Shown here one piece after another: positions 18,181-41,827 of a stretch of 64,000 bases of DNA (its first letter is position 1; every line of letters begins with the position of its first letter). Where the stretch lies: contig CAUYUJ010000248.1 of NCBI GenBank assembly GCA_963575745.1, positions 124,001 through 188,000 of the forward strand, given 5' to 3'. The notes below the pieces were generated by a model. It searched no databases. It saw only the letters and a list, made by a program, of their open reading frames with translations, and was not told where the DNA came from. The translations under genes were made by a program, and so were the position numbers. Origin of the DNA: Prorocentrum cordatum (Eukaryota).

Positions 18181-19650
18181 GAAGATGACTCTTGTGGCTG
18201 TGTCGCGAGGTCACATGGAGTCGGAAAGCGGATCTATTTCCACTAGCCGCACTGGCCCACTGGGGGGTGGGATGCGTGATCGAATTTACGAGGGCATCCA
18301 CGTGCGAGATTGACGAGTAGAGCACTCAAGCGAGCGGGCTTGCCCGGATTGCGTCTGGGGAGCTCGCGGATGCTTGGGCAGTGCTCCTTGGTAGCCTCGC
18401 ACTTTTCAGGCGGGGGGATAGATTAGCATGCTTCGGCTAGTCCCACGGGCTCTGGCCTGAGTGCTTCCATCCCTGCCACTGGCGCCGTAAAGTGTGATTG
18501 CGGTTGGCGCCGTGGGGGGCCAATGTGCCCTGGGGATGGAGTGGCGTCCGCCAACCCAGGGACATGCCGAACCCAGGTGAACTGATCCTCCTGCGGCCAG
18601 GCAATTTGTTATGAGAAGGGCGGTCAGTAGAGCCCTTTCTGCAGCTGGCTGCTTGCCTGTACAAAGCACGACGGACTCGCTTGAACACCAGACTCGAACG
18701 GTAGGTCCTCCTGCATTGCCTGCTCGTCACCTTGTCCTTGCCGCTGCCGCGCTGGATCTCAAGGATCCTTGACCGCGCCCGCTCTACATTGCTTTCCACG
18801 CTATGCATCCGCTTACGTAATGCAGTCTTTCATTTCCCACCACATCCTCATTTCTAGTCTCCTTCTCCTCCTCCTGCTCCTGCTCCTCCTTCCCAGGCTC
18901 CTCCTCAGCCGGCGGGCCGCGCGTCTCGCCGGCCGCGCTGGCGTGAACGGGGGGGGCAAGCCCGCGCCACGGCATCGGCACAGTCGGACCGAGGTGTAAA
19001 ATCGAGGTCGATGCGGGGAAGGAGCCCTGACGTTATTCGTGTTTGTTCACGTTCTCGTGAATCCTGGGGGAGCGCACCCTCGAATGCTTTCCAGTCTGGC
19101 CGGCGGAGGGCCTCATACTCTTGAGGGGCGCTTTTCTGCCCCAGGTCCAGCCGTAGCGTCATCGATGCGCTCCTGTTTCCCCTATGCGGGACGACCGCGC
19201 CCGCCTTCGGTTCGTTCGGCGCACGGGTATTTTTTCTGCGGGGTTTCGGCCTCCCGATCCGCCGCCAGAATATCACCACATCCACTGTCGCCGGGACGTG
19301 GTCCGAGGATTCGGGGAACGGTAGATATGGATATTTGCCCACCCACGCGAGTGGGCAAACATCCTTATCCACCGCCCCTCGAGATCTCTGGGCACAACTC
19401 CCAAGAAGCGGATGTGGACATATTCTGGCGGTGGCTTCGACCCCGCCCGCAACCATTGGGGAAGTCAGGCCGTGCGGTTCGCGCCCGTGCGCGGCTCTCG
19501 TAACCCATGGCGACCGTGGCGGCGCGCTCGACGGCGGGCGTCTCGGCCGCGGGCGCGCCGCGCCGGACGTCGTCGGGGTGGTCGCGGGCCGAGAAGTTCC
19601 AGGACGTCTTCTCCGCGGGCGAGCGTGGCAAGGCTCGGGGGCGGCCAGGG

Positions 19651-19820
19651 CTGGCGGCGCGCAGAGGGGGGTAGGAGGAGGGGGGGAAGGCTTCTTAGAA
19701 AGAGGCTGCTTCTCAGAAGGCGCGGGCCTTGGCTGTAGATGCAAGGCACGCGGCTTCTAAGAAGCAGCCCCCTTCTAAGAAGCCTTCCCCCCCTCCCCTG
19801 CCCCCCCCTGCGCGCCGCCA
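19651..19820. mobile_element. Palindromic MITE, same family as 4150-4326
   Basis: ctggcggcgcgcag...ctgcgcgccgccag termini with internal cttctaagaag arms. Confidence 0.75.
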
Positions 19821-20209
19821 GCAGGAGGGCAGTGCTCGTGTCGATGCCTGCGATTCGATTCAGTCCGATCTCGATGGCTTCCAGTGCCGAGTCGGTTGGG
19901 TTGAGGGTTCCGATGTGGATCCCGATTTCTCAAGGGAGGCTTGCCAGCCTGCCGATGTCCGCCGATACGACTTCTCCCGACTCTGCTGCCGATTTCCGCC
20001 GACCCGATCCATTTCGATCGCCGATGCGACTTATCGATTCAATTCTGGGCTAGCTTGAGAGGGGGGTGACGACCAGGCAGCGGGGATGCCGTGTCGGCGG
20101 CCATGATACCTCTCCCTTGATGGCATGGCCCCTCGTCTTATCTCGGTGCGGTTCCTGGCCTCCCCCGTGGCCCGCGCGCATGCCTCGGGCCATGATGTGC
20201 GAACCCCCT

Positions 20210-20512
20210 TCTCCTCCGCCTCCTCCTCCTCCTCCTCCTCCTCCTCCTCCTCCTCCTCCTCCTCCTCCCCTTCCTCCCCCTCCTCCTCCTCCTTCTCCTC
20301 CTCCTTCTCCTCCTCCTCCTCCTCCTCCTCATCCTCGTCGTCCTCCTCCTCGTCCTCCTCTTCCTCCTCTTCCTCGTCCGCCTCCTCGTCTCTTCCCACT
20401 CCTCCTCCTCCTCCTCCTCCTCCTCCTCCTCATCCTCCTCCTCCACCTCCTCTTCCTTCTGCTCCTCCGCCTCCTCCTCCTCCTCCTCCTCCTCCTCCTC
20501 GTCCTCCTCCTC
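20210..20512. repeat. (CCT)n microsatellite
   Basis: Directly visible; similar tracts occur throughout the window. Confidence 0.95.
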
Positions 20513-21635
20513 TGGTCCGTCTTCTTGAAGTAGGTTGCTGAGCATGCGTGCGTATGGCCGCTGGCGTGAATGCTCAAGCTGAATCCAGAGACCACTACGA
20601 CAATTACGTCCTCGGTATCGAACCCGTGTGGTTGGGCCTCGCATCCGCGAGGCGCTGAGAGTTGTCATACACCTTTTGCTTTGTGCTCCCGACCGGGGGC
20701 AACCACCTTTTGACAAGTATGCCACGATGGGCTACATGAACTGGGTCATCACGTATGGCCGGCCCGTCGAGGGCACTTACGTACACATAGCATTACCTTA
20801 TCATGATGCCCCGTCGGGGGCGCGTAGGCGTTCACGACGTTCGCCTGCATGTATCGTCTCTTCGACATCCTTTTACAGCCGTTCTCGGCTATTGGCCGAC
20901 GCCCGCGGGATGGGTGGGTTATCCCTTCCCCGGTTGGCTACTGTGCTGCCTTCTATTCTTCATCCTGGCTGTCGGAAGGTGCTCGTGCCATGGGATCGTG
21001 CCGACGCCCGCGGGATGGGTGGGTAATACTTTCCCCTGTTGGCGCCTTCAATGTGGAGTCAGAGGCCTAGACACGCACTTATACTTCGTCGGCACCCCAG
21101 GGCGTTGCGTCCTCTATAAATCGCTGGTCGTTGAGTTCACATCTGTCCCACGGCCGACTTCTTTCTGTTCCTTTCCTTTGGCGGAGTTCTTCTCCTGCAT
21201 GTCCATCGGTGGCTACATGGCTGCCGGGTGTGCGTCTTCGGCCACCAGCGCCTGGCTACACATGACAAGGAATTCACACCCATTTTGGCGTGAACTACAT
21301 CATCATGATGTTCAAGTGGTTCGAGACGGTTTCTGTTCGGTCATCTTCTTCAACGCTTGTGGACCCTAGGCCAGAGTCAGCCTGGTTCATATTCAGAGTG
21401 CAGCAGAGGCAGGCGCATGATCGGTCTTCTCCAGGGTGCTACGATCCGCGCGGTGCCCTGGGCCCCCTCCAGCACATCCCATCGTACATCCAGAGTTTCT
21501 TCCCAGATCACGAGGGCGCTGGTACTTGCTTGCCCATTACGGAAGATATTGGCATCCAGAGTTTCGCTTGTATCGTGTTCCTCCTTTGCATCTTGGTCTG
21601 CGGCGTTCTGTCGTGTTGCTGTGGGGCTCTCGGCG

Positions 21636-24600
21636 ATGGAGCCTGGTCAAACTGTCGCCATCCAGTGGAGAGTTCGAGAAGATTGGCAAGTGCGTCTGGT
21701 CATCTCCCCTTGCTCTCCCGAGAACTACGATCGCGAGATCGGCGACCCTGCCCAGGCGAATCAGACATCGAAGCTATTATATTGTATGACCCCCGACGGC
21801 GACATCGACCCGCATGTACTGGACGTGGGGCCCTTGGTCGGGGTAGTGGCACCCGATCCGACGGGTCAGCCCCTGCCGGGCACCAGGCTCGGCCGCCAGT
21901 TCCGACCTCAGGACCGATTGTACGGAGCCGACTGGGCCCCAGCGCCCTTGGAGTATACGCGAGCTCGCAAGTTTTGCTGCCCAACGGATCCCTCGGGCGC
22001 CGCCCTGCGCCGGCTCCGCGGGAAGCATGGAGTAGCAGCCCCAGCGGACGCAGCGTCGCCAGCCCCGCCAGCAGTTCCGAGCAACCTGGACGTCGGGGCG
22101 GGCGAGTTCCCGAAAGCGAAGGCTGACTCGTACTGTTAGAAGGTGATGGCAGCCACGGGCTCCACCGACGCGAGGTCCGAGTTCCCCAGTGGTGACACGG
22201 TGGGAGGGTTCGCGGTGGCACAGCGAGGCTCAGATGTGTTTCTGCTCAGGTACATCAAGCGTGACGAGCTGGGCGGCGAGGGGCGACCTCGACGCCCGCG
22301 TGCTCGCCATCAAGGAGACGCAGGACGGCGAGAGGCGGAGGGTGTTCAAGGACGCCGTCAGTGTGCTGACGGAGACCAGCTGGCCCCACTGGCCAGTCTT
22401 GGGGCCGCGGACGGCTCGGCGGTGAACGCGCTTCATGGCAGACAAGGATTATCATCCACGGTCGCGCCACACGAAGTGGAAACGCGAGACGGGCCTCGCC
22501 AATTACAACCCTGGTGCAAGCGAGCACGAGCTCATCATGCGCGTGTTCGACGCCGCCATCTCGCTCGACCAGCTCAACGCGAGCGAGCTCGCCACCTTCG
22601 AGTACCTCGCCCGCCGCGCCCCACTCATCGAGCACAAGTACCGTGAACGTGTCACGAGGCGACCCAGCACTGACGACACCGTCTTCTTGATGATGGGCAC
22701 GGCCGAAACGCGCGGCCACTTGATGATCTGCTCTGACCTGCAGGGTCACATCACGACCGAGCTGCACCGCGAGGCCAGCGCGATGACGGAGCGGCGCAAA
22801 CTCCGCGCGGAGCGTGCCAGCGCGCGGACAGGTGGCCGCGGCAGCGGCAAGGGCAGCGGGGGGGGGCGACAAGGACGGCCTCCACCTGAAGATTGAGCAG
22901 CAGGCAGCCGAGCTGAAGAAGCTGCTGGTTGCTCGGTCCCTCCTCGGTGGCGACCAGTCTGGCGACGGCCCTGGGGCCGCGGTCAAAGCTGACCGCGCGT
23001 GCTCCCCCTGGGCGCCAAGCCTTGCAGCATGGCGCCCCCGCCGCCTGGGCGCCCTTCGGCGCCGGGGCCTTGGCTGCCATGGTGGTCGGGCGCGAGCTCC
23101 TCCCCGTCGACGTCGAGCAGCTGGCCGACTCCGTCGTGCATGACGGCCTGGACGGAGCCTCCCGCAGCGTCCGTGGCCGAGTTCGCCGCCGGGTCGCCCT
23201 TGGCGACCGGGTGCGCGAGACTGCGTCTGCTCTCAATCTTTTGCGCAACCACGGCGAGCCCAACGGCTCGCGCTCTCTTTCGCTTGCTCAGCGACGCGGC
23301 GCCGAAGCTTCCGACGCGGCCAGGGGCGTCTCGGCCCGCCTAACCTGAGCGCCGCGGCAGCCCTCGGCGAGCTGCGCGGCGGCAAGTCCGGGTGCCAAGA
23401 CTCGACGAAGTGCGCCTCCTACCAGCGAGACCACGTCTCGCTGCCTGGCGGCGGGGGCCTCGCTCAGGGGGGCAAGTGTTTCGGCGGTCAGGCCTTGAGC
23501 TTTTGGAGGGGGTGGGGGCGGCATCTCTTGCATCCCGGCGTCGACCGGGGCGCAACCTTTTCGAAATTCAAGCCGCGCGTGGACAGCCGCCCAAGAAGCC
23601 GCTCGCCCTACGCGCGCTTCAGTTTAGACTTGCAGGCTGCAGGCGCCGCGGGCACCTGCAGTGCCCGAAGCCGGCAACTCTCGGGCTCTTCTTTGTTTGG
23701 AAAAGCGATGGCGTTCGGCGGCGTCTGATTTTTGATGCCGGGGGGCGAGCGCGTTCTTCCGCGCCCCTCAGCGCCCCCAGTTGCCCACCTCGGGCGCGTG
23801 GCGCCCCTCGTACATGCCTGACGAGCGTGGGCTTTCACTGCGCCGAGCTGACGTTGAAAGTGCTTTCTATAGGATCGCCCCCCATCTGGCATCGATGATT
23901 TGTTCGTTCCCCTTCCTGTTTCCGCTGGGCATCTCGAGGCGCTGCCCCCAGGTAGCTCTGGTTGCGCTCGGGGCGCTGGGGCGCCGTCGCTGGCGCTGGT
24001 CTTGGCCCTTCTATTTCTGCCAGTGCGCGGTTGAAAAAAGCCGCTCTCGATTCCAGCCCCCCCCCTGACAGGCTTGTCCAGGATAGGCGGGCGATTGCCG
24101 ACGAGGGGGGCTCCGTCGCCGCCGCCAATGTCGACGACGTCGCTTTCCTCGGGGCCAACTCGTCTGCGCGCGCCGACGGTTGCTCGAGAGCCGTCAACTT
24201 CCAGGGGCAGCGCGGCCTGCTTTTTAAAAGGGGTGGTCGGGGCCTCTGAGCAGCAAGGGCTCACTGGTCTCACCGTCGAGCGAAAGTCCGGGCTGATTTC
24301 CCCATCGACCGCGCGTCTCTGGAAAGTTCGGCTCGGGCTCTCGGAGCTTTGTAGGGCAGGCTAGCGCAGCGGAGACGAGTTGAGACGGGTCCTGGGGCAC
24401 CTGGCCTGGGCCTGTTTATTGAAGCGGGGAATGCTGTCTGTTGTTCCTTCGGTTTTTCCAATTCGTTTCGCTTGCGGGGAGTCGGCGGTGGCGCCTCTGG
24501 GCTCGCGTAGTGAGGGAATTGCGGATCGCCGCTGCCCTGCTGCCGTTTGCGCTCGCGGACGTCAAGCGGCCGTTCGACTCGCTCGCGGCGGCCTCGGATG

Positions 24601-26900
24601 CTTCCGGGGCCGGGGCATTCGACAGCGGTGGTTTCGGCGTTTGCGAGCGGGCTCGGGATTATGATGTCGTTCGGGCCGTGGCCAGCCGCGTTGATAAGTG
24701 GCGTTGCTGCGTGGAGGGCGCCATTGGCGCTCGGGAGCAAGCCTCGGGACTTCTCGTGGACGAGCAGCGCGTCGTTCACGTGCGGCCGCGGGCCCGGAGA
24801 GGCGCCGCCGACTTGTCGCACGTCGATCGGGGGCAGATCGGGGATCCCGACGCGTGGCCCACGGTCCTGTTCGGCCGTTTCGCCACGACAGAAGACATCA
24901 TGAGGACCGAGGGGCGGGCGCTGGTCATGGGTACCCGGCGCAAGCTTAGTAACATCAGCAGCTTCGGCAGTCGACGTCTGCCCTGTGCGATAATGTGTCA
25001 GTTGCGCTCGCCACTGGAAAGGGGCGGTCGTCGAGTCCCCCTTTCAACCGTACTTGCCAAGAGTTGTTGCGTTTGTCCATCTTGTCCAATTTCCTTTCAT
25101 CGTGCGACGGATTGCTTCAGAGCTGAACCCGGCCGGCGACCCCTCCCGCAGCCTCGCGGCCCGGCGGGGAGGGCCGCGCCGGGGCCCGCGGGGACTCGCG
25201 CGGACGCCCCGGCGGCCTGGAGCACAGCCGCGTCCTTCTTCGACGCGGAGCTCGACCTGGTCCTCGCCCGTTGCGTCGAGCGGCGCTTCGGCCCCGACCC
25301 GGGGGGGCAAGGGAGCGCCCGCGGCCCCCTGGCGGGTCTGGGCCGGGCGGGCTCGGCGACGCCTCGGAGCCAGGCCCTCGCCCTGGCGGCCTCGCCCGGG
25401 CCCGGCTCGCGCGCGACGCTGGCGGGGGCCCTGCAGGGGCTGGCGCGACCCGAGTGGCTCGGTCCAGCTCGTCCTCTTCGCCCAGCGAGGACGAGGGCGC
25501 CGCGGGCGCAGACTGCCGCTCGGAGGTCGACCGCCCTCCAGGCGCGGCGAGCCGCGGACCGAGCCCGACGCCAGCAGGCGGCGACGGCCACGTCCCAGCC
25601 GGCCTGACCTTCCCGCCGCGGGCCCGAGCCAGCCGCTTGGCCGAGACGCGGCACCGCCGCGTCTGCGACGTGTTCCTGGAGGGGGGCCGTCTGGAGAGGC
25701 GCTGGCTGCTGACCATGGCTCCGGAGGTCAGCCGCGCTGCGCTCAAAGGCTTCAAGAAGAGGGCGCCTGGGCGGACCCGCAAGCCTTTGCTACGGGCAGC
25801 AGTCTTCGCGATGGTGGATGCCGACGGGTCCTCCAACTTGCTCGACTTCTCCCTCGGCCGCCTGGTCGCCTGGGTCGCGCGCTCGCGGCCGCCCGGCGAC
25901 TTGGCGGATGCGGCGGGCAGCTCGCCGGCGGAAACCCAGCCCAGCAACGCGATCAATGAGGTCGCCATCCTGTTCTTCATGCGCAGCAAGACGGCGCGAT
26001 TCGACGAGGGGGTGGCGTTCGAGAGCGCGGCGGCGGTCGCCTCCCACGACGTCCTCTTCGAGAGCTGGGAGTTCAGCGCCGCCCAAGAGATGCGGAGGCA
26101 CCTGGGCGAGTCCAGCGCACTGCGCTACCCGAAGGGCACCAGGTACTCGGCCGAGGTGGAGCGTCTCCCGACAGAATTCGCGGAGTTCGGCGCCTGGGTC
26201 GAGGCCGTCTTCTCCGAGCGGCCGCGCTGCCGCGGGCCGCCAGAGCCCCTCAGGTGAGCCAGCTGGCTCGAGACAGTGGCGCCAAGGCTGGCGACGCACT
26301 GGGCGTTTCCTCGCGCCTCAGCAGGGGCTCCATCCATCAGACGTGGGCCGACGCCTTTTCCGACGCCACCTCTTCCCGCACAGGCCAAATATTTCTAGAC
26401 CTTTTCTCGGGCTCCGGGAGTCTCGCTCGGGCTTTGAGGCGCTCGAGGGATTGGGGGTCATCGAAACCGACCTGAAATTCCACCCCGCGTTTAATCTAAA
26501 TGATTCGATGGTCGTGGACCTCATAGTCGGGTGGATCGGCTCAGGCCGAATCAGAGGCATTTGGCTTGCCTTCCTTTGCTCTATCTGGAGCGCTGCCTCG
26601 CGCCAGCGATATAGGACCCCACGTGGAGCTGTTTGGCCGTGCTGACATGGACCCCCAGGGCCTGGAGCTTGTGCTGGCCGGGAACAGATCCCTGGCCGCC
26701 ACCTGCCGCATCGTCGGAAAGTGCGCTCGCGGCGGTGTGCCACTCGTGGCAGAGAATCCCGCCTGCAGCCTCGCCTGGAGCACGCCCGAATTGCAGCGTC
26801 TCGCCCGCCACAAATCTTGCCAACGCCTCACATTCGATTTTTGTCTCTTCAAAGTCACGTGGAGAAAACGGACGACCATGTCGGGCTGGCATCTGACCCT
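21636..26900 (+). mobile_element. Decayed DIRS-type (tyrosine recombinase) retrotransposon with a C5 cytosine methyltransferase
   Basis: Ordered domains: gag-like (MTPDGDI; DARVLAI...WPVLGPRT...EHELIMR...DQLN, 21636-22896), RT (LFFVWKSDG..RLIFDA; DVESAFYRI; NVDD), RNase H (ASDASG; EGRAL; SELNPAGDPSR), recombinase-like (RAALKGFKKRAPG..RKPL; SKTARFDE), then a DNMT. Many frameshifts. Confidence 0.85.
26385..26900 (+). pseudogene. C5 cytosine DNA methyltransferase domain of the DIRS element
   Basis: Motif I FLDLFSGSG; degenerate motif IV WLAFLCSIWS (catalytic PC lost); motif VI VAENP; motif VIII-like DFCLF..WRKRT; spread over more than one frame. Confidence 0.8.
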
Positions 26901-27514
26901 TTCCCCCTCCGCCGCTCTCTCGCTTGTGCCAACTCGTCGACGGCCGATGTTGTTTTTGAAATGAGCCTCACATACACTTGTCCGGTTCGGCCCCAGGGTC
27001 CAACCAGAAATGGACCGCACGTTCCGAGCTTTATCCGTTGGGCCTCTTTTCTGTTGGCGCTCGGTGGCTCTGGAGTACCGCTCTTTCAATCGAAGGAACC
27101 CGTCTGGACGCTATCGCTGGCAAATGAGTGTTGTGTGCCTGCCTCTGTTGACGGCCAGTCAAGTTGGCCAAGGCACAGTATGGTGATCGGGGGTCTGGAC
27201 GACCACAGCCTGGGCCCCTGTCCGCTGTCAGCCTGTGCTCGAGAGAAGTGTGTCCGATCGGTCCACGATATCCAGCGTGCCGCCGAATCCTACAGATGTT
27301 CTGGCCCCTTGTTGCCAAAAAGGTTTCCCGCGCCTCTGCAAAACATCGTCGAACTTGCTAGCATTCTCCCTGTATATCCCTCCTCCTCCTCCTCCTCCTC
27401 CTCCTCCTTCTCCTCGTCTTCCTTCTCCTCCACCTGCGCGCCCCCCTCTGGGATGCCCCCCAGAAGGCGCCGACCGACTCCAAGGGCGCGCCGCCTTCCT
27501 TCGCCGAGGCGGTG

Positions 27515-30500
27515 ATGCAGCTCGAGGCCGCGCACGCGCGGGAGGTCGAGTCGTTGCGGAGAGAGCTGCGGAAGATGAGCCAGAAGGCCACGAAGCAGGC
27601 CAGAGGAGGGAAATATACCAGTTCCCCCCCACGTTTCCCTCGGTTTCGCCTTGTCCGGCCTCTCGGGAAGCCCTCGTCGCCGCCGTTGAAGTGGCCGCGA
27701 GATCCTGGTCAGAACGCACCCACCCAGGGAGAGGTCCGGGGGGTACCAGCATCAGTATTTTTTCGTGTCCTCCCCCAGGCGGCCGACGTTGCCGCGCGGA
27801 ACTCGGAGGGCTCCACCAAGGACGGGACCCCGGGGACGGTGAACGACCCGCAGCAGGCTGGGCAGCAGGCCGAGCTCGGCTCCCAGGAGGGGGCCTGGCC
27901 CCGGCAGCACAGCTGGGACAGCGAGGCCGAGGTGTCCGAGGACACGTTCGACGACCCCTTCGTGGTCGCAGAGCGGGCGGGCTACGACAGGAACAGCATC
28001 GTGTGGAACCCGTTCGCGGAGAGGCAGAACGAGTTCTGTCAGTTCATGAACAGGTACCTCAAGAGCGGCGGGCAGTCGCGGAAGAGGCGAATTGCGTACA
28101 AGATTGCGAAGAGTTGGCCTTTCGATGCTGTGACGTATTTCATGATCATTGCTAATTCCTCCTTCATCGGCATTCGCATGCAACTTGATATGGACAACGC
28201 GCAGAGCAACACACCGGCGGAGATGTGGCCGGAATATGTCGAGCTCGGTTTTGTTGTTTTTTTTGCGCTTGAGCTCCTGTGCAAGCTGCTGGCGGAGGAC
28301 GTGTACGTCTTCTTTGGCACCGATTGGCACTGGAACCTGCTGGACACGATCCTGGTGCTTGCTGCTCTTGTGCAGCTGGCGATCGAGAGCGTCAACGGCT
28401 CCGACACACCGAACCTGACGCCGACCCGGAATATCAGGCTCTTTCGCATCACGCGGGTCTTGCGGGTCGTCAGGGTCGTGCAGGCATGCCAGACCTTGCG
28501 AGTCATGATCTTCTCAATATTCAAGTCTTTGGACGCGCTGATCTGGGTATTCGTAGTGTTATTGTACTTCATGTACATATTCGCGATGATCTTCATGCAT
28601 GGCACCCTTGCGTTCTTCGAGTCACACCTGGACAGCGGCGGAGGTGACCTTAGTCTTCAGGAACAACAGTTCTGGCTGACCCCGCAAGATCACATCGACT
28701 ACATGAAGTGCAGCTGGAGCAGCATCGACCGAGCAATCGTGACTCTCTTTGAGAGCGTCACAGGCGGGCGGGACTGGGGGGAGGTGTACTACTCTTTTCT
28801 CAGGGTCGACCCGTTTTACGGTCTCCTGTACTTCGGCTACGTGTATCCAAGAGGCGTACGCCTTTCCGTCGAGCCCCCGAGCAGGAGAGAAGTTCGTCGT
28901 GTTCGCTAGCTCGACGTCGGAGCCTCAGTGCTGGCGTTCGGCGAGGGTCCGAGGACTCTGGAGATGTTAGGGTTTGGCAGGAGTCAACCATCCTTCCTGG
29001 TGTTTTGTTCTCTGCTCGAGCCTCTGGGGAGACTCATGGAGCTGCTTGGGGGGCCATGCGAACACTGTTCAGCCACGCTGATAACAAACACAAGCGAATC
29101 TTGCCTCCTGAGGCCCTCTGGGGGGCGCTCTTGGAGCTCGTCTGGGACGTCATTGGAGGCCTCTTCGGCCGTCTTGCGGCCATCTTGGGTGTTGGTGAGG
29201 GCTCTCCAGAGTGTTGGAGCTCCTTTCTTGAGCCATCTTGGAAGACATCTTGAGGCCACCGCCCCAGAAGTGCGACGACGAGATCGTGACCCCCCCTCAA
29301 GCGATTGGGGTCCAGGAGCTCCAGCGAGGAAGAACAAGTGGCAAGGGGGTACAGCCAAGACGCTGGAACAAGGAACAGCTTGGGTTCGGAAGGGGCTCGA
29401 TGTTCCCTAGATCCTTCCAGCGGGAGCAACTCTCCCCTGACCCCAGGACTCCGAGAGCGGCCTTGCCTCCTCCCGAAGTGGCTGCCAGCGTATTCGACGC
29501 GAGCGAAAACAATGCTGCAACAATCCGAAACAGTGGTTCCCAGGATGGCCACAGAGGACACGGATTCTTCCCACGCCCGGCTATTCGCCCGCCTGGCAGT
29601 GCGGGCCACCGCGACTCTTATTCGGACCAAGGGACGGGCTGACAAAGAAAAACGGGCAAGAAAGATCCTTGTATGGCTGTTTCTCTAGCCCTCCTCGTGC
29701 ACTCAGGCGCTCTTGGGAGCCAAAGAGGGACTCCGTTCCTCGTTTGGCGTTCCTTGTCTCAGCAGCCCGATTGTACAGCCACTCATCTCATACGCTTCCT
29801 CGCTCCCGGCGCACGACGCCGAAGCCAAAAAAGTCGCCAGACTTGGCTGCGCTGCGGCCCCGGGCCCAGCCCCAGGACGCGCTGCAGAGGAGACTATTTT
29901 GGCCGACTGGTACGTGCCGCCTGAAGACCGAGGATGCCCTCGTCTTCAGGTGGGGCGCCGCGCTGGACGGGTTTATCCTCCAGCAAAGGCACAACCACGA
30001 CGACGTCGTGCACGAATTGGTTCAGTTGTCACGGATGAGGAGGAGGAGGAGGAGGAGGAGGAGGAGGAGGAGGAGGAGGAGGAAGAGGAGGAGGAGGAGG
30101 AGGAGGTGGAGGGGTCGAATCCTGGCGAATCCTGCCGTGGCGACCCCCCTGCGCGTTCATCCAGACGGACGCGCCGAAGCCAAAGTACGGCGGCGGATTT
30201 CATGGTGTTCTTGGTACTCAACGTTGTAATTGGCACTGTGGTGGATGTTACAACTGGCGTTGCCTCGAAGGACCGGGACCGTATGGTTGATCACGAGATC
30301 GCATCCCTCAAGACCTACGCAACTGACATCAAGACCTTCTTTAAGCAGGCAGATACAGACAACTCAGGCCAGCTCTCGTGGAAGGAATTCAAAGAACACT
30401 TAGAAAATGATCGTGTTAAAGCGTATTTCCAAACGCTGGATCTAGACATCCGCAAAGCTCACACGTTGTTCAAGCTGCTGGACCGCAACGACAACGGAGA

Positions 30501-30663
30501 GGTCGGGATCGAGGAGTTCCTCGACGGCTGCCTCCGCCTGAGGGGCCAGGCCAAGAGTCTCGACATGAACCTAGTGATCTACCAGTTGGAGACACTTGTC
30601 GAGGAGATCTCTCGGAAAAAGCCCACTCCAGGGCGTGGAAATGTGCGGGCCGAGACGACCTGA
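27515..30663 (+). CDS. Single-domain (6TM) voltage-gated Ca2+/Na+-type cation channel with two C-terminal EF-hands; exons ~27515-27598, 27779-28846, 30199-30663
   Basis: S1 FDAVTYFMIIANSSFIG; S2 ELLCKL; S3 WNLLD; S4 RNIRLFRITRVLRVVRVV; pore TLFESVTGGRDWG; S6 GYVY|FMVFLVLNVVIG; EF-hands DTDNSGQLSWKE and DRNDNGEVGIEE. Intron 27599-27778 is GC-AG, 180 nt and in frame. Start codon uncertain. Confidence 0.9.
29352..29773 (+). mobile_element. Tc1/mariner-like MITE (TA flanks) carrying an internal ~250-bp insertion
   Basis: TA|CAGCC...ATTG|TA; its two halves match the uninterrupted copy at 58689-58852. Confidence 0.65.
29780..30105 (+). mobile_element. 5'-truncated LINE 3' end with (GAG)n tail inside the channel gene interruption
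   Basis: PQDALQRRLFWPTG peptide homologous to 8234-9080, followed by (GAG)n. Confidence 0.6.
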
Positions 30664-31932
30664 GTCGAGTCTTGGGGTTTGCGACGGCCCGAGACGAGGC
30701 ACCGCCATCGCGCGACATGCGTTGACTCCAGCTGGCCTGCAAGAGGCTTTGCAAGTGGTTTCTGGTGAAACTCCAGGGATCGACTCTGCATCTCTTTTCT
30801 GCTCGGCGCCGCGTAGTGCACAAGCAGGAGAGACGGCGAGGCGCCATGCGACCGCCCAGCCTACGGAAGGTTCGTGTCGTGTTGACCAGCGACCACCCCG
30901 CCGCCGGCGTCGGCGTTCAACGTTGAACGCCGCCAGCGACCCAGAACCGATCGATTTTGAACGATCTGACGGTTCGGAAACGGCCGACCGTTCAAGGTGG
31001 AACGATCCCTGCGGTGTCAGGAGCTAACGCAGAAGGCGGCACGACATGAACTTGTCGTAGTCCCGGCGACTGACTCTGCACTCGCGCGCCATCGCTTCTC
31101 CTGTTCCAGGGCGGCCTTTGCCCAGAGTGGCCGCGCCAGGGCACCAGCACGGTCGCGCTTCTCGCGGGCGCGAGAGCGCGAAGTTGGGTGGCCTTTGCAG
31201 GCCCTCCGCCCGTCGCCAGGGGGGCGCCCCGGGGGGTTTTCCGCGCGGCGCATAATCTGGCGACGAAACCTATACATATTCGTTGCTCCTTGGCCATGCC
31301 CATCCTGAAACAAGTAGCTGTGCATACGCCCTCCTGGCCAAGCAAGGAGGGCGTGGCGTATACACCGCTGCTGGGTTCAGGATGGGCCTGGCCAGGGAGC
31401 AGTGGATATTTATAGATTTGGTCGCCCTACATAGAAGCCCGCACCCCCGCAAGCCCGGCCCGGCAATTGTCTGTCCCCGAAAAACTCGCCGGGGACGTTG
31501 TTTCACAGAGGGCCTGCGCTGAACGGCACCTCCTTCTGCATACGTCGGTACTGCTGCCCCGTGAAAGGGGAAAAGATGGCTCGGCGCCCGCGTTGCCTGG
31601 CCGCTCGAGCGCCTCCTGGCATAGACAGCGCCACGGCTCGCCAGCTGCGGGGGGCGACGCGAGCCACCCGCCTGGCCGCTCGGAGCCGATCAGGAGCCAC
31701 TGAGCACCCCGCGTCCAGATCACCCACGGGGGCGCGAAGATAATCGCGCTTCGTGCGTCGCGGCCTGAGCCAGAGCGGCTGCCATGCGGCGTGGGGGCGC
31801 GAGGGGCGAAGTCAGGTGACCGAGGGCGCTGCAAGTCGTTACGCAGCGGGCGATTGCCCCCAATCCCGGGCCCCAGGACAGTCACGGAACGATCCGCCTC
31901 GAGAAGTGCTGCAGGGATGTTGGGTCTGGGGC

Positions 31933-31933
<1 letters not shown>

Positions 31934-32012
<79 letters not shown>

Positions 32013-32394
32013 GCGACGACGATGATGATGATGGTGATGGTGATGGTGATGGTGATGGTGATGGTGATGGTGATTGTTGTGATGGTGATGGTGATGGTGA
32101 TGATGAGGATGAGGATGAGGATGAGGATGAGGATGAGGATGAGGATGAGGATGAGGATGAGGATGAGGATGAGGATGATGGTGATGGTGATGGTGATGAT
32201 GCTGATGGTGATGGTGATGGTGACGGCGATGGTGATGGTGATGGTGATGGAGATGATGATGATGGTGATGGTGATGGTGATGGTGATGGCGATGGTGATG
32301 GTGCTGGTGCTGGTGCTGGTGGTGATGGTTGTGGTGGTGGTGCTGACGATGATGATCGTGATGGTGATGGTGATGATGATATTGGTGGTGCTGG

Positions 32395-32425
<31 letters not shown>

Positions 32426-32740
32426 GAGGATGAGGATGAGGATGCTGGCTGTCTTTAGGGCGGGTTTAGGTTGAATCGGTTGAGTGTTTTTGTGTTTTGA
32501 TGCCGACGACGATTGTAATGATGGTGATTATCAAATCGTAGTGCTGATGGTGGTGGCGATGGTGATGGTGATGATGGCGGTGCTCATCACATCCACAATC
32601 ACCATCATCACCATCACCATCATCACCATCACAACCGCCCTCACCATACCATCATCACCATCCCCATCATCATCATCATCATCATCATCATCACCATCCA
32701 TACCATCAGCATCGCCATCACCATCACCATCGTCACCATT
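31934..32740. repeat. (GAT/GGT/GAG)n and (CAT/CAC)n compound microsatellite
   Basis: Directly visible. Confidence 0.95.
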
Positions 32741-32927
32741 GTGGTCCGTAGGACTTGGCTCAAGGTAATGTCATGGAGCTCTAACATGCTATGTAAGAGC
32801 TCCTTGGGAGCTCTAACATGCTATGGTAGATTTCGATGTGAGGGTTGTGAACTCTAACATGCTATGTTAGAGCTCGATGGGAGCTCTAACATAGCATGTT
32901 AGAGCTCCCATCGAGCCGTCCCCCCCG

Positions 32928-32992
<65 letters not shown>

Positions 32993-33469
32993 CCATCGGG
33001 CACGTCCGCATGCCGCCCCCCCCGCCGTCGTCGTCGTCGTCGTCGTCGTCGTCGCGGTCGTCGTTGTCGTCGTCCCATTAAGGCACACCCTCACACGTCT
33101 TGTCGGCCTCACGTGGAGCTCCGCCGAAGGCTCCAATGAGCATTTCCATTTTGCGCGTCCGCCTCATTTCGGCAACCCCCTCAGACGCTTCGCGGCCCCC
33201 ATCCGCAATGCCTCGGGCTCCACCCCTCTGGCGGCGCGCTACCTATGAGGAGAGAGTCATCCTGCGCCACTCGCAGCTGCATGGGGTTGGGCCCTTACGA
33301 CGGCGACGACTTCCACGAGGACGACGAGGTGAAGACGGCGACGACGACGACGACGACACATCCTCTCCGCAGCCGCCTCCTCATCCTCCTCTCCTTTCCT
33401 CCCACGTACCTGGTCATCCATCCAACCTTCCACTGTGTTCCTCCCACGAATCCTCGTCGTCGTTGTCCT

Positions 33470-33648
33470 CCTCCTCCTCCTCCTCCTCCTCCTGCTCATC
33501 CTCCTGATCCCCCTGTGCCTCGTACCCTGCATCCCCCTCTCCTCGCCTTTCTTCTTCTTCCTCCTCATCATTATCATCACCATCATCATCGTCAGCAGCA
33601 GCAGTATCGGCATCCTCAGCATCATCATCATAGTCGTCAACATCATCG

Positions 33649-33680
<32 letters not shown>

Positions 33681-35044
33681 GTTCTCATCATCATAATCAG
33701 CATCCCCCCGTGGCCCATGGCCCTCTTCCTGCTCACCCTTTTTCCTGCTCTCCTGCCCCTCCTGCTCCTCATCCTCCTCCTTCTCCTCCTCCTCACGCTC
33801 CCCCTCGCCCCCCTCCTCCTCCTCCTCCGCTCCGCCTCCCCCCCTCCCCCACCAGCAGCAGCAGCACTAGCACCAGCAGCAGCGCCAGCAGCACCACCAT
33901 CAGCAGCAGCAGCAGCAGCAACTGCCGCAGCAGCAGCATCACTGGCAGCACCGACAGCAGCACCACGAGCACCTGCAGCAGCATTACCACTAGCAGCAGC
34001 AGCAGCAGCAGTAGCAGCAGCCTTATTGGGCCATCTTGGGGCCATCTTGGGGCCTCGGATGGTCATCGGAAGCGAAAATGCGAGAAGGCACAAATCACAT
34101 TTTGTTTAGTTTTTAAAGGAGTTTGGCATATTGGGGGCCTCCTTGGAGGTCTCCGAGGCCGTTTGGAGCCGTCTTGGAGCGTTCTTGGGGCCCCTTGGAG
34201 AATCTGCGGGGCCATCTTGAGGCATCTTAGGCTATCTTGAAGCATCTCGGAGGTCATCTTGGGCTCTCCGAGGCGCTCTTGGAGCCGTCTTGGGCCATCT
34301 TGGGCGCTCTAACTACCCGCGGGGCGCCCCGTCCAGGTCCAGGGGAGGGGGTAGGGGGAGGGGGGGCGTGAGGAGGAGGAGAAGGAGGATGATGAGGAGC
34401 AGGAGGAGCAGGATAGCAGGAAAAAGGGCATCATCATCGTCATCATCATCATCATCATCATCATCATCGTCATCATCACCGTCATCATCGTAATCAGCAT
34501 CCCCACATGGCCCATGTCCCTCTTCCTGCTCACCCTTTTGCCTGCTATCCTGCTCCTCCTGCTCCTCATCCTCCTCCTTCTCCTCCTCCTCACGCTCCCC
34601 CTCCCCCTTTACCCCCTCCCCTGGACCTGGACGGGGCGCCCCGCGGGTAGTTAGAGCGCCCAAGATGGCCCAAGACGGCTCCAAGAGCGCCTCGGAGAGC
34701 CCAAGATGACCTCCGAGATGTTTCAAGATAGCCTAAGATGCTTCAAGATGGCACCGAAGATTCTCCAAGGGGGCCCAAGAACGCTCCAAGACGGCTCCAA
34801 GAGGCCTCGGAGACCTCCAAGGAGGCCCCCAAGATGCCAACATCCGTAAAAACTTACAGGCAAAATGTGATGTGTGCCTTCTCGCCTTTTCGCTTCCGAT
34901 GACCATCCGAGGCCCCAAGATGGCTCCAAGATGGCCCAAGAGGGATGCTGCTAGTTCTGCTGCTGCTGCTGCTGCTGCTGCTAGTGGTAATGCTGCTGCA
35001 GGTGCTCGTGGTGCTGCTGCAGGTGCTGCCAGTGATGCTGCTGC

Positions 35045-35077
<33 letters not shown>

Positions 35078-35617
35078 TGATGGTGCTGCTGCTGGTGCTG
35101 CTGCTGGTGCTAGTGCTGCTGCTGCTGGTGGGGGAGGGGGGGAGGCGGAGCGGAGGAGGAGGAGGAGGAGGAGGAGGAGGAGGAGGAGGGAGATGAGGGG
35201 GGGCGTGAGGAGGAGGAGAAGGAGGAGGATGAGGAGCAGGAGGAGCAGGAGAGCAGGAAAAAGGGTGAGCAGGAGGAGGGCCATGGGCCACGGGGGGATG
35301 CTGATTACGATGATGATAACGATGATAATGATAATGATGATGATGATGATGATGATGAGGATGATGACGACTATTATTATTAATAATATTAATATTATTA
35401 TTATGATGATGACGATGATGATGATGATGGCGACGACGATGATGATGATGATGCTGATGATGATGATGCTGAGGATGCCGATACTGCTGCTGCTGCTGAT
35501 GATGATGGTGGTGATGATGATGAGGAGGAGGGGGAAGAAGAAGAAGAAAGGCGAGGAGAGGGGGATGCAGGGTACGAGGCACAGGGGGATCAGGAGGATG
35601 AGCAGGAGGAGGAGGAC
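33470..35617. repeat. ~2.1-kb imperfect palindrome (inverted duplication of a ~1-kb repeat)
   Basis: cctgatccccctgtgcctcgtaccctgcatc (~33500) is the reverse complement of ~35560-35600; arms align inward to a centre near 34440-34490; third partial copy at 36860-37480. Confidence 0.85.
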
Positions 35618-35619
35618 AA

Positions 35620-36290
35620 CGTTTGCGCAACGGTTAAGGCCCCCCCCTGGCGAGACGGGGGGCCTTAACCGTTGCGCAATCGATTGTGAAACGGTTAAGG
35701 GGCGGCGGCGGCGGCGGCGGCGGCCGGCGGCGGCGGCGGCGGCGCTGAACCGTTTCACAATCGATTTCGCAACGGTTAAGACCCCCCCCTGGCGAGAGGG
35801 GGGTCTTAACCGTTGCGCAATCGATTGTGAAACGGTTAAGGGGCGGCGGCGGCAGCGGCGGCGGCGGCGGAGCGCTTAACCGTTTGACAATCGATTGCGC
35901 AACGGTTAAGGCCCCCCCTGGCGAGAGGGGGGTCTTAACCGTTGCGCAATCGATTGTGAAACGGTTAAGCGGTTACGGAGCGGCGGCGGCGGCGGCGGCG
36001 GCGGCTGCGGCGCTTAACCGTTTCACAATCGATTGCGCAACGGTTAAGGCAGGGGGGGGCTTGCGCAATCGATAAACGCGAAGGCGCAACGGTTAAGGCT
36101 CCCCCCTGGCGAGAGGGGGTCTTAACCGTTGCGCAATCGATTGTGAAACTGTTAAGGGGCGGCGGCGGCGGAGGAGCGCCTAACCGTTCCACAATCGATT
36201 GCACAACGGTTAAGACCCCCCTGGCGAGAGGGGGATCTTAACCATTGCGCAATCGATTGTAAAACGGTTAAGGGGCGGCGGCGGCGGCGG
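35620..36290. repeat. Palindromic satellite TTAACCGTTGCGCAATCGATTGTGAAACGGTTAA with GC-rich spacers
   Basis: About 10 near-palindromic units separated by ccccctggcgagaggggg or (GGC)n. Confidence 0.9.
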
Positions 36291-36720: not shown

Positions 36721-37990
36721 GGGAAATCGATCAACGAAGGGGGATCCCTCAAATCGCCCTGCCCCTCGGGAACCCACAAAATAGCCTCCTGGACCCCTCT
36801 TGGGGCGCTCTTGGAGCGCTCTTGGGCGCTCTTGGGGCCGTATTGGGGCTCTCTTGGCCCCCTCTTGGGGCCCTCTTGGGCCATCTTGGAGCCATCTTGG
36901 GGCCTCGGATGGTCATCGGAAGCGAAAAGGCGAGAAGGCACAAATCACATATTTTCTGTAAGTTTTAAAGGATTTTGGCATCTTGGGGGCCTCCTTGGAG
37001 GTCTCCGAGGCCTCTTGGAGCCGTCTTGGAGCGTTCTTGGGGCCCCTTGGAGAATCTTCGGGGCCATCTTGAGGCATCTTAGGCTATCTTGAAGCATCTC
37101 GGAGGTCATCTTGGGCTCTCCGAGGCGCTCTTGGAGCCGTCTTGGGCCATCTTGGGCTCTCTAACTACCCGCGGGGCGCCCCGCCCAGGTCCAGGGGGGG
37201 GCAGGGGGAGGGGGGGCGCGAGGAGGAGGAGAAGGAGGAGGATGAGGAGCAGGAGGAGCAGGATAGCAGGAACAAGGGTGAGCAGGAGGAGGGCCATGGG
37301 CCATGGGGGGATGCTGATTACGATGATGACGGTGATGATGACGATGATGATGATGACGATGATGATGATGACGACGATGCTGATGATGATGATGACGACG
37401 ACGATGATGATGACGATGACGATGATGATGATGCTGCTGATGACGACGACGACGATGATGATTATGATGACGATTAGGGCTCACATGGAGCTCTAACATG
37501 GCACGTGAAACCATGTTAGAGCTCCCAGGGAGCTCTAACATGCTATGTTAGAGCTCCCTGGGAGCTCTAACGTGCCATGCTCGAGTCATGCTCGAGCTAC
37601 TTGGGAGCTGTAACCTGCCATGCTCGAGCTCCCAGGGAGCTCGACCCTGCTATGTGAGAGCTCCCATGGAGCTATAACATAGCATGTTAGAGCTCCCATG
37701 GAGCTCTAACCTAGCATGTCAGATCTCCCAGGGAGCTCTAACATAGCATGTGAGAGCTCCGATGGAGCTCTCGAGCTCTACATTGCATGTTAGAGCTCCG
37801 ACGGAACCCTAATCTCCGAGGTCAGAGCTCAGCCTATCATGCTGCACCTCACTAGCCTTCATGTTAGGCCTTCAAGGGAGGTTCCACTCTTCCCCCGAGA
37901 TGCCGTCGTCGTCCCCTCTATCCCGCCCTTCCCTCCAGGGGGAGCTCAGTCGCCGTCGTTCCCCTCTCCTCCATCCGCCCCTCTCCGCAG

Positions 37991-40758: not shown

Positions 40759-40819
40759 TTTGTTATTCGCATCATTATTGCCACCATTAACCTTCGTCTC
40801 ATTAGTTGTATGGTTGCTA

Positions 40820-40904
40820 CATCCATATTATTATTATTGTTATTATCATCATTATTATGTATTATTATCAATATGTTTGTTATTATTATTGATATTATTA
40901 TTGA

Positions 40905-40945
<41 letters not shown>

Positions 40946-41735: not shown

Positions 41736-41827
<92 letters not shown>

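What the first reader, a model, noticed from the sequence alone, without database searches (positions are those of the whole stretch)
28841..30204. Intact ion channel gene split inside S6 by a 1352-nt insertion with no canonical splice sites at the motif-restoring junctions
Seen: upstream reads ...GGC TAC GTG TAT|CCAAGAGGCGTAC and downstream reads GTACGGCGGCGG AT|TTC ATG GTG. Removing exactly 1352 nt (AT..GG, TC..GA or CC..AT boundaries, 2-bp AT repeat) gives GYVYFMVFLVLNVVIG, which matches the usual S6 spacing Y-I/V-x-F-x-x-F-x-V-L-N. The insertion ends are loosely inverted (ATCC...GTAC vs GTAC...GGAT, with weaker similarity over ~80 nt). Both flanks are stop-free and conserved, while the insert holds a MITE and a LINE fragment, which suggests an old tolerated intron. 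The only nearby in-frame GT-AG option (28843 to 30185) gives V-TAAD-F inside the helix. Inference: a non-canonical, possibly structure-guided intron of transposon origin, as known from Amoebophrya introners and euglenid nonconventional introns.
Basis: partly seen in the sequence, partly recalled or inferred. Interest (0 to 1): 0.78.

Follow-up and report, generated by a model that had tools for sequence, protein, structure and literature searches.

The report
Odd-ended intron splits dinoflagellate channel gene

Summary
Observation confirmed. The gene is a single-domain voltage-gated cation channel with a C-terminal EF-hand pair, in a Prorocentrum cordatum-type genome. RNA contigs from 4 of 4 runs laid (4 studies) join 28844 to 30197. 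They skip exactly 1352 nt with ends AT..GG, TC..GA or CC..AT (2 shared letters) and have no mismatch in the bridging contigs. A 99%-identical transcript-derived protein reads GYVY|FMVF. None of 60 nearby G[T/C/A]..AG pairs gives this mRNA. Introns 1 and 2 of the same gene are ordinary GC..AG. A fourth intron, in the 3'UTR (30848-31075), is also odd-ended: GC..CT. Five of 8 NCBI gene models of P. cordatum paralogs derail at this junction, and 15 of 15 transcript-derived relatives read through it, so the intron looks old and shared. The ends are not inverted beyond chance and show no exceptional pairing. No LINE fragment was found. The MITE is real but internal. The U12 type does not fit. The removal mechanism is unknown. 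This scan had already noted one other odd-ended intron in this genome (e1-7627401).

The parts
19507..19632 (+). Exon 1 (start codon ATG at 19507; MATVAARS...)
   Evidence: tblastn of P0002 residues 1-43 at 100% identity. The loose end before 27464 in X1 and X9 equals the exon-1 end. The joined CDS matches P0002.
19633..27466 (+). Intron 1, 7834 nt, GC..AG followed by G (5 shared letters AAGGC allow other registers)
   Evidence: Reading together with the loose ends. The join reproduces P0002.
27467..27598 (+). Exon 2
   Evidence: RNA contigs cover 27464-27595 with 0 other letters.
27599..27778 (+). Intron 2, 180 nt, in frame and stop-free, GC..AG followed by G (5 shared letters CAGGC)
   Evidence: Joint 27595->27776 skipping 180 nt in 4 of 4 runs, both=5. 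Sequence read.
27779..28846 (+). Exon 3: S1 to the first half of S6 of the channel (pore motif TLFESVTGGRDW)
   Evidence: Ion_trans PF00520, E 8e-27, profile positions 3-213 of 241. RNA contigs 27776-28844.
28847..30198 (+). Intron 3, 1352 nt, the finding: CC..AT (equally 28846-30197 TC..GA or 28845-30196 AT..GG). No G[T/C/A]..AG register and a purine-rich 3' end without a pyrimidine tract
   Evidence: Joint in 4 of 4 runs. P0002 junction. 0 of 60 canonical-type pairs give the mRNA. Sequence read.
28843..28848 (+). GTATCC, which resembles the start of the U12-type 5' splice-site consensus but lies 2-4 nt upstream of the cut actually used
   Evidence: Sequence. Consensus RTATCCTY / ATATCCTTT as quoted in passages of PMC5032977 and PMC6259924.
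30184..30185 (+). Last AG before the true 3' boundary, 11-13 nt upstream of it and not used as acceptor
   Evidence: No joint to 30186 appears in the RNA contigs.
29349..29776 (+). MITE-like element with terminal inverted repeats (GTACAG...CTGTAC) and a ~257-nt internal insertion (about 29421-29677), lying inside the intron
   Evidence: Inverted repeat I1. Copies at 58694-58856 (+) and 52138-52244 (-). Three-way alignment.
30033..30112 (+). (GGA)n microsatellite inside the intron
   Evidence: Tandem Repeats Finder, period 3, 26.7 copies.
30199..30847 (+). Exon 4: second half of S6 (FMVFLVLNVVIG...), EF-hand pair, stop codon at 30661-30663, then 3'UTR
   Evidence: EF-hand_7 E 4.4e-16. RNA contigs 30197-30847. 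CDS.
30848..31075 (+). Intron 4 in the 3'UTR, 228 nt, GC..CT (or 30847-31074 TG..AC; 1 shared T). Its 3' end is not AG
   Evidence: Loose ends at 30847 in 4 of 4 runs with one consensus. Its first 20 letters match only 31076-31095 (1 match, 0 expected), and all 30 letters read at 31076-31105.
31076..31105 (+). Start of exon 5 (3'UTR); its further extent was not determined

Best explanation
The 1352 nt at 28847-30198 are a genuine nuclear intron of a functional single-domain voltage-gated channel gene. The intron is removed from the pre-mRNA precisely and, as far as assembled contigs show, constitutively, although no register gives the G[T/C/A]...AG ends of dinoflagellate introns. It is old: paralogous channel genes appear to be interrupted at the same codon. 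It has since picked up a MITE and a microsatellite inside. Shown: the DNA holds the insert, the RNA lacks it, the junction is exact, and the neighbouring introns 1 and 2 of the same transcript are ordinary GC..AG. Inferred: removal is by RNA splicing of this locus's own transcript, most likely by the cell's major spliceosome working with relaxed recognition of intron ends, as proposed for the non-canonical introns of Amoebophrya. Removal probably does not depend on a hairpin that pairs the two ends or on the minor (U12) spliceosome. A second odd-ended intron in the 3'UTR of the same gene (GC..CT) suggests that such introns are not rare in this genome. The public annotation allowed only GT/GC/GA donors, with AG(G) the acceptor motif it reports, so it cannot represent them.
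For: RNA: the joint 28844->30197 occurs in 4 of 4 runs from 4 studies, with 0 mismatches in the bridging contigs. The RNA runs hold 0.36-0.47 of the words of 27400-30700, which fits exons only. P0002, a spliced transcript product 99% identical to the window, reads GYVYFMVF. Register: 151 of 169 homologs are ungapped over the junction slice, and the Ion_trans profile match runs through the junction, positions 3-231 at 105.6 bits against 94.4 bits for exon 3 alone. Non-canonical: 0 of 60 G[T/C/A]..AG pairs reproduce the mRNA. Age and function: 5 of 8 NCBI P. cordatum models (P0003, P0005, P0006, P0014, P0019) and the unnamed P0135 break exactly at the junction. The breaks are an inserted HGGG, read-through starting with Pro, exon 2 read out of frame, or Ion_trans matches that stop at profile position 210-213. 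In contrast, 15 of 15 jgi/lgn/merc relatives read Y[VI]Y|F straight through. The annotation pipeline was set for GT/GC/GA donors; AG(G) is the acceptor motif it reports (passages of PMC10666404; two supplement files searched). Second case in the same gene: intron 4 is GC..CT. No self-splicing or other known RNA family lies in 28600-31300.
Against: No DNA run was laid, so an identical insert-free copy of the gene cannot be ruled out directly. Contigs cannot show rare isoforms, lariats or intermediates. The claim about paralogs rests on protein models only. Their DNA could not be fetched, and a true 4-residue insertion in P0003 is not formally excluded. Three of the 8 NCBI models (P0009, P0020, P0062) are intact at the junction, so not every paralog need carry this intron. 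Nothing here shows that a spliceosome does the cutting: no conserved end motif, branch site or pyrimidine tract was identified. The whole-intron minimum-energy fold does close the two junctions with an interrupted 8-bp helix, although that helix is no better than random pairs.
Confidence: 0.62

Rival explanations
1. Removal is guided by structure or an introner and is not conventionally spliceosomal. On this reading the intron descends from a TIR element, and pairing of its ends juxtaposes the exons, as proposed for Amoebophrya introner elements and euglenid nonconventional introns.
For: Non-canonical ends with a short shared repeat (AT) and terminal ATCC...GGAT and GTAC...GTAC. No pyrimidine tract at the 3' end. 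The minimum-energy fold of the 1392-nt stretch (intron plus 20-nt exon flanks) pairs 28840-43 with 30201-04 and 28845-48 with 30195-98, so both junctions sit in one interrupted helix, with a summed pair probability of 5.9 between the two end regions.
Against: Inverted similarity of the ends equals the shuffles at 20, 40, 80 and 120 nt: 173, 395, 201 and 146 of 500 shuffles reach the observed score. End-to-end duplex z-scores are +0.83, -0.02 and +0.76. The junction-to-junction duplex is -13.0 kcal/mol against a null of -11.1 +/- 5.4, and 34% of 2000 random pairs do as well. The canonical introns 1 and 2 score better. The direct repeat is 2 nt, not 3-5, and no 8-20 nt inverted repeat exists (criteria from passages of PMC7789003). 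Positions +4..+6 and -8..-6 are not the paired CAG/CTG of euglenids (passage of PMC11282704; sequence). No second copy of the ends lies in the window.
Confidence: 0.15
2. The mRNA comes from another, insert-free copy of the gene (a recent duplicate, retrogene or allele). On this reading the copy in the window is a gene disrupted by an insertion and is never correctly expressed.
For: Only RNA-type runs were laid, and dinoflagellate genomes hold many duplicates and retrogenes (general knowledge; scan notes). A 2-nt repeat could be a target-site duplication.
Against: Exons of the window match the RNA contigs of X1 with 0 other letters from 27464 to 30847, including the UTR, and introns 1 and 2 are spliced from the same transcript. 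The insert is composite: unique sequence, a MITE with a nested insertion and a microsatellite. It is not one recent element. Five of 8 paralog models plus P0135 break at the same codon while keeping conserved open frames on both sides, which independent insertions would not give. A retrogene would still need the non-canonical junction to have been made in RNA once.
Confidence: 0.08
3. It is a U12-type (minor-spliceosome) intron with degenerate ends, like the conserved AT-AC introns of animal sodium and calcium channel genes.
For: GTATCC lies at 28843-48, and in one register the intron begins ATCC. The last upstream AG and GTAC lie 11-13 nt before the 3' boundary, a distance typical of U12 branch sites (that distance is recalled, not from a call). 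Animal Nav/Cav genes carry a conserved U12 intron (passages of PMC6259924).
Against: The cut lies 2-4 nt downstream of where a GTATCC site would be cut, and that cut cannot give the observed mRNA (and reading). No TTCCTTRAC-like branch box precedes the 3' end (consensus). A survey of over 3000 genomes reports no evidence of minor introns in Alveolata (passage of PMC10639083). The animal U12 intron is in domain I S1, not S6.
Confidence: 0.03
4. Assembly artefact: the 1352 nt were wrongly placed in the gene by the assembler.
For: No DNA reads were examined here.
Against: The same kind of interruption is implied at the same codon in several paralogs on other contigs. A second odd-ended intron lies 650 nt downstream. 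The insert has clean unique flanks and shares only 2 nt with the exon edge.
Confidence: 0.03

Closest known systems
Non-canonical introns (NCIs) of Amoebophrya strains A25 and A120 (Farhat et al. 2021, PMC7789003; passages read)
   Same: RNA-supported nuclear introns in a dinoflagellate lineage whose first and last two letters follow no rule. Short repeats make the exact boundary ambiguous. Standard gene finders fail on them.
   Different: Here the host is a core, free-living, photosynthetic dinoflagellate. The subset called introner elements needs 8-20 nt inverted repeats and 3-5 nt direct repeats, and both are absent here. This intron seems old and shared by diverged paralogs rather than recently spread. 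It is 1352 nt long, whereas that study analysed introns of 40-1000 bp.
Standard dinoflagellate introns with GT/GC/GA donors, AG(G) acceptors and identically repeated boundary sequences (Mendez et al. 2015, PMC5032977; P. cordatum genome paper PMC10666404; passages)
   Same: A short sequence is repeated at both boundaries and kept once in the mRNA. Introns 1 and 2 of this very gene fit this type (AAG|GC and CAG|GC, 5 shared letters).
   Different: Intron 3 has no GG or AGG at either boundary and no G[T/C/A]..AG register. Intron 4 has a GC donor but ends in CT.
Euglenid nonconventional introns (as reviewed in PMC11282704; passages)
   Same: Variable non-canonical borders, no pyrimidine tract, short repeats at the junctions, and lengths from tens to thousands of nt.
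   Different: The defining end-pairing (usually CAG/CTG at +4..+6 and -8..-6) is absent, and end pairing is not above chance. Excision as circles could not be tested. The lineage is unrelated.
Non-canonical introns of the tunicate Fritillaria borealis, removed by an adapted U2 spliceosome (as reviewed in PMC11282704; search listings)
   Same: This is the working model I favour: a major spliceosome that tolerates non-GT/AG ends.
   Different: Those introns have preferred end types and trace to MITE insertions. Neither is shown here.
EukCat single-domain voltage-gated channels (Helliwell et al.; bioRxiv 10.1101/2020.04.29.068528; passages)
   Same: The host gene is a 6-TM single-domain channel with a C-terminal EF-hand pair, like EhEUKCATB1. 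The paper names a dinoflagellate class, EukCatC.
   Different: No phylogeny was made here to place it in a class. The pore motif TLFESVTGGRDW differs from the motifs quoted in that paper.

Membership tests
Dinoflagellate spliceosomal intron of the annotated type (G[T/C/A] donor, AG acceptor) | A register with GT, GC or GA at the 5' end and AG at the 3' end that gives the observed mRNA | tested here: not met
   0 of 60 donor-acceptor pairs within 28815-28899 and 30120-30244 reproduce the mRNA. The three possible registers are AT..GG, TC..GA and CC..AT. Introns 1 and 2 meet the feature.
Amoebophrya-type introner element | Inverted repeat of 8-20 nt between the 5' and 3' ends of the intron | tested here: not met
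   Only ATCC/GGAT (half of it the shared AT) and GTAC. Local alignment scores are at the shuffle level for the first and last 20-120 nt. Criterion taken from PMC7789003.
Amoebophrya-type introner element | Direct repeat of 3-5 nt overlapping the exon/intron boundaries | tested here: not met
   2 shared letters (AT).
Amoebophrya-type introner element | Many similar copies in the genome (a family) | not testable with these tools
   No genome is held for this window. Within the 64-kb window only the internal MITE and the microsatellite recur, not the ends.
Amoebophrya-type non-canonical intron in the broad sense | RNA-supported intron whose splice sites differ from the canonical motif | tested here: met
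   This is a descriptive class, not a homology family.
Euglenid nonconventional intron | Stable pairing near the ends (typically +4..+6 with -8..-6) that brings the ends together | tested here: not met
   Those positions are not complementary. Duplex energies are not better than controls. The fold closes the ends, but with a helix of ordinary strength.
Euglenid nonconventional intron | Excised as a full-length circular RNA after the conventional introns are removed | not testable with these tools
   Only assembled contigs were available.
U12-type (minor) intron | RTATCCTY at the 5' cut site | tested here: not met
   GTATCC is present at 28843-48 but is followed by AAGA, and the cut used lies 2-4 nt downstream.
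U12-type (minor) intron | TTCCTTRAC-type branch box shortly before the 3' end | tested here: not met
   The last 40 nt hold no such box. Consensus from PMC6259924.
U12-type (minor) intron | Minor spliceosome present in the lineage | not testable with these tools
   No genome is held. A passage of PMC10639083 reports none in Alveolata.
Self-splicing group I or II intron, or another curated RNA family | Match to an Rfam covariance model | tested here: not met
   0 matches at E <= 1 in 28600-31300, both strands.
Voltage-gated ion channel, Ion_trans (PF00520), with EF-hand pair | Profile match above the curated cut-off running through S6, plus EF-hand domains | tested here: met
   P0002: Ion_trans 105.6 bits (cut-off 25), profile 3-231 of 241; EF-hand_7 36.1 bits. 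The window's exons score separately. Solved Nav/Cav chains match at E down to 8.5e-28.

The most novel reading that the evidence does not exclude
Core dinoflagellates, and not only the parasite Amoebophrya, may run a second, end-sequence-independent way of removing introns. It would act on old introns that stay fixed at one codon across diverged paralogs, here in the S6 helix of a channel family. In Prorocentrum it may define the 3' cut by something other than AG. Both odd introns of this gene are cut 11-15 nt after the last AG. The paralog models hint at a shared start (CC) and a G-rich (GGC)n-like 3' end. If so, a sizeable hidden class of introns is missing from every dinoflagellate annotation that admits only GT/GC/GA-AG.
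Probability: 0.3. Interest if true: 0.8.

Novelty: new member of a known kind. Interest (0 to 1): 0.57.

Why it matters
The P. cordatum annotation was built with tools set for GT/GC/GA donors (passages); other dinoflagellate genome papers report the same three donors with AG acceptors. Two of the four introns of one gene are of this kind. The price is visible: 5 of 8 public models of the paralogous channels are truncated, frame-shifted or carry false residues in the pore-lining helix. A splice-motif-free remapping of existing RNA data could reveal how large this class is, correct many gene models, and provide the set of examples needed to learn what defines these splice sites. It would also show whether the Amoebophrya phenomenon is a general dinoflagellate trait.

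Tried and rejected
1. End-to-end inverted repeat: alignment of the first 20-120 nt with the reverse complement of the last 20-120 nt is at shuffle level.
2. End-to-end duplex energy against dinucleotide shuffles: z = +0.83, -0.02, +0.76.
3. Pairing of the intron ends with either exon: 56-82% of shuffles do as well.
4. Junction-to-junction duplex against 2000 random 24-mer pairs: not exceptional for intron 3 (0.34) or intron 4 (0.083).
5. Two-step idea: an inner GC(28854)..AG(30185) intron is removed first, leaving 20 nt. The fold of that hypothetical intermediate gave a hairpin of no tested significance, and no RNA contig shows the intermediate. Dropped as unsupported.
6. Stem-loop sites of the IRE1 kind and bulge-helix-bulge sites were only looked for by eye, against recalled motifs, and not seen. 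No formal test was made.
7. Rare-codon constraint at the junction: Tyr TAT occurs at the junction in both the window and L001, but TAT makes up 4 of 18 and 5 of 15 Tyr codons, so this is not significant.
8. LINE fragment: 0 Pfam families for the 7 intron-overlapping ORFs of >=110 aa. These were among 130 of 155 filtered ORFs sent; 25 were left out, mostly overlaps of the channel exons. Among 20 ORFs of >=45 aa there were only sub-threshold low-complexity hits.
9. Metagenome scan for paralog DNA with a degenerate exon-2 pattern: 1 locus (L001), which is a spliced transcript and not genomic.
10. A second gene in the window (kinase-like, 37868-39578) to sample more introns: only 3 relatives at 32-38% identity, useless for exact junctions.
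11. The own genome and cluster names could not be queried, so the source of P0135 and P0133 is unknown.
12. Parts of the intron with RNA depth (29357-29719) are covered by contigs with mismatches that belong to the MITE family elsewhere. This is no evidence of intron retention.
Full report
What is there. The window is GC-rich. Its best named protein relatives are gene models labelled Prorocentrum cordatum. The finding lies in a gene on the + strand. The upstream open frame carries an Ion_trans domain (PF00520, E 8e-27, profile positions 3-213 of 241). The downstream frame carries an EF-hand pair (E 4.4e-16). Solved sodium and calcium channel chains match the upstream part at E down to 8.5e-28.

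Check by RNA and by relatives. A protein on record, P0002, is 99% identical to the window. It has 596 residues and sits on a 2318-nt contig, so it comes from spliced RNA. It reads ...FYGLLYFGYVYFMVFLVLNVVIG.... tblastn places it on 19507-19635, 27464-28846 and 30199-30660. Of 23 public runs listed, 18 hold part of 27400-30700, with shares of 0.36-0.47 of its words, which fits exons only. I laid the contigs of four runs from four studies. All four carry a joint from 28844 to 30197 that skips 1352 nt, with ends AT..GG and two letters that fit either side. The bridging contigs have no mismatch, and 69-255 nt lie on the shorter side. I enumerated 20 G[T/C/A] donors in 28815-28899 and 3 AG acceptors in 30120-30244. 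Of the 60 pairs, 15 are in frame and stop-free, among them 28843/30185, which gives V-TAAD-F. None gives the observed mRNA. The S6 register is secure. Of 169 family members compared, 151 align without a gap over the 31 residues around the junction. The Ion_trans profile also runs through the junction in P0002, positions 3-231 at 105.6 bits.

The other introns of the gene. Joining exons by coordinates gives a 596-codon CDS that differs from P0002 at 4 residues. Intron 1 (19633-27466) and intron 2 (27599-27778; joint seen in 4 of 4 runs) each share five letters between their boundaries. In one register each is GC..AG followed by G, the usual dinoflagellate type. In all four runs the contigs also leave the window at 30847 with one common continuation. 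Its first 20 letters occur once in the window, at 31076 (0 expected by chance), and all 30 printed letters read there. So a fourth intron of 228 nt lies in the 3'UTR. It runs GC..CT, or TG..AC if the one shared T is moved. It has a normal-looking donor but no AG at its end. Two of the gene's four introns therefore fall outside the rule.

Age. Fifteen of 15 relatives from transcript-type sources (jgi, lgn, merc) read Y[VI]Y|F.. straight through. Of 8 models named P. cordatum by NCBI, 5 go wrong exactly here:
- P0003 has HGGG inserted.
- P0005 continues with exon 2 read one base out of frame and stops.
- P0006 runs into foreign residues and stops.
- P0014 and P0019 replace FMVFLVLNVV by eight foreign residues, and their Ion_trans matches end at profile position 210-213.
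P0009, P0020 and P0062 are intact at the junction. An unnamed representative, P0135, at 46% identity to P0002, also derails at the junction into Pro-Gly-Arg-Gly-Gly and then the out-of-frame exon 2. The P. cordatum paper states that its mappers and predictors were modified to accept GC and GA donors, and its tables list only GT, GC and GA donors with an AGG acceptor motif. I read passages of the main text and searched its two held supplementary files. The simplest reading is that these paralogs carry an intron at the same codon that the pipeline could not model. This is an inference from proteins. I could not fetch their DNA: no genome is held, the metagenome scan found only one spliced transcript, L001, and cluster names were unavailable. 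The read-through residues hint that the intron begins with CC in the window, P0019 and P0135. They also hint that it ends in a G-rich (GGC)n-like run in the window, P0003, P0014, P0019 and P0135. The third codon letters are unknown, so this is a lead, not a result.

What is inside. A MITE-like element with GTACAG...CTGTAC termini lies at 29349-29776 and carries a ~257-nt internal insertion. Shorter copies lie at 58694-58856 and 52138-52244. A (GGA)n array lies at 30033-30112. No reverse-transcriptase, endonuclease or transposase signal was found in 7 ORFs of >=110 aa or 20 ORFs of >=45 aa. No Rfam family matches at E <= 1 in 28600-31300. The intron ends have no second copy in the window. The mobile DNA is thus a passenger inside the intron and is not its borders.

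How it might work. I tested the structural idea in several ways:
- The inverted similarity of the ends is at shuffle level.
- Duplex energies between the ends have z between -0.02 and +0.83.
- The intron ends do not pair with either exon better than shuffles.
- The fold of the whole intron with 20-nt flanks does close both junctions in an interrupted 8-bp helix. A junction-to-junction duplex of that strength is reached by 34% of random pairs from the window, and the canonical introns 1 and 2 score better.
The U12 idea fails on the cut position, on the missing branch box and on the reported absence of minor introns from Alveolata. I therefore favour removal by the ordinary spliceosome with relaxed end recognition, as was proposed for Amoebophrya. 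I stress that no step of the chemistry is shown here. One shared feature of introns 3 and 4 is that the true 3' cut lies 11-15 nt after the last AG. With two cases this is only a lead.

Comparison and novelty. Non-canonical introns with arbitrary end letters are described at genome scale for Amoebophrya A25 and A120. A review lists 'other boundaries' essentially for that genus. Papers on core dinoflagellates treat GT/GC/GA-AG only. Mendez et al. note that early single-gene studies saw introns that fit no consensus (passage; I did not read those older papers). My searches listed no paper that describes introns outside G[T/C/A]..AG in Prorocentrum. This scan had already noted one other odd-ended intron, 17.7 kb long, on another piece of the same genome (e1-7627401; I did not test it). 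So this is a new, well-documented member of a known kind in a lineage where it is not annotated. It has the added points of conservation across paralogs and a second case in the same gene.

Limits. All RNA evidence comes from assembled contigs. These show presence and exact joints, but not rare isoforms, strand, lariats or levels. No DNA run was examined, so an identical insert-free copy is unlikely for the reasons given but is not excluded.

Noticed in passing
window 30848-31075: A second non-canonical intron of the same gene, in the 3'UTR: 228 nt, GC..CT (or TG..AC), removed in RNA contigs of 4 of 4 runs. The last AG lies 15 nt before the true 3' boundary.
   Followed up: partly
proteins P0133 and P0020 (relatives, no DNA held): P0133 derails right after ...FLVMNVV, and P0020 has two extra residues (SM) after ...LNV. 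Some paralogs may therefore have a further intron ten codons downstream, which would make FMVFLVLNVV a 30-nt micro-exon. This would also explain why P0014 and P0019 lack exactly these ten residues.
   Followed up: no
window 30199-30260 and L001 926-985: GC3 falls to 0.55 in the 20 codons after the junction, against 0.80 and 0.78 gene-wide. That window ranks 30 of 578 (window gene) and 2 of 447 (L001) for low GC3. This could be a nucleotide-level constraint next to the splice site or just codon choice in a membrane helix.
   Followed up: partly
window 37868-39578 (+): A protein-kinase C-lobe (weak Pkinase hit below cut-off) continues in another frame into a ~390-residue domain that contains WHTDGG. 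Relatives of 822-839 aa with kinase domains exist at 32-38% identity. The frame change near 38400 suggests a small intron or a frameshift.
   Followed up: partly
window 27599-27778: Intron 2 (180 nt) is in frame and free of stops, so the upstream exon looks like one long ORF (27362-28909), and a naive ORF call would add 60 false residues.
   Followed up: yes
window 20207-20512, 31700-35900, 40700-42000: Very long triplet and other simple repeats (CCT/GGA, poly-Asp, His or Ile-coding runs) fill intron 1 and the region downstream of the gene.
   Followed up: no
window 28758-28792 and 30466-30528: RNA contigs of paralogous channels (for example one that encodes ...TLFECITGG...) lie on these conserved stretches and produce a false 'joint' 28792->30466 in three runs. 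It is not an isoform of this gene.
   Followed up: partly
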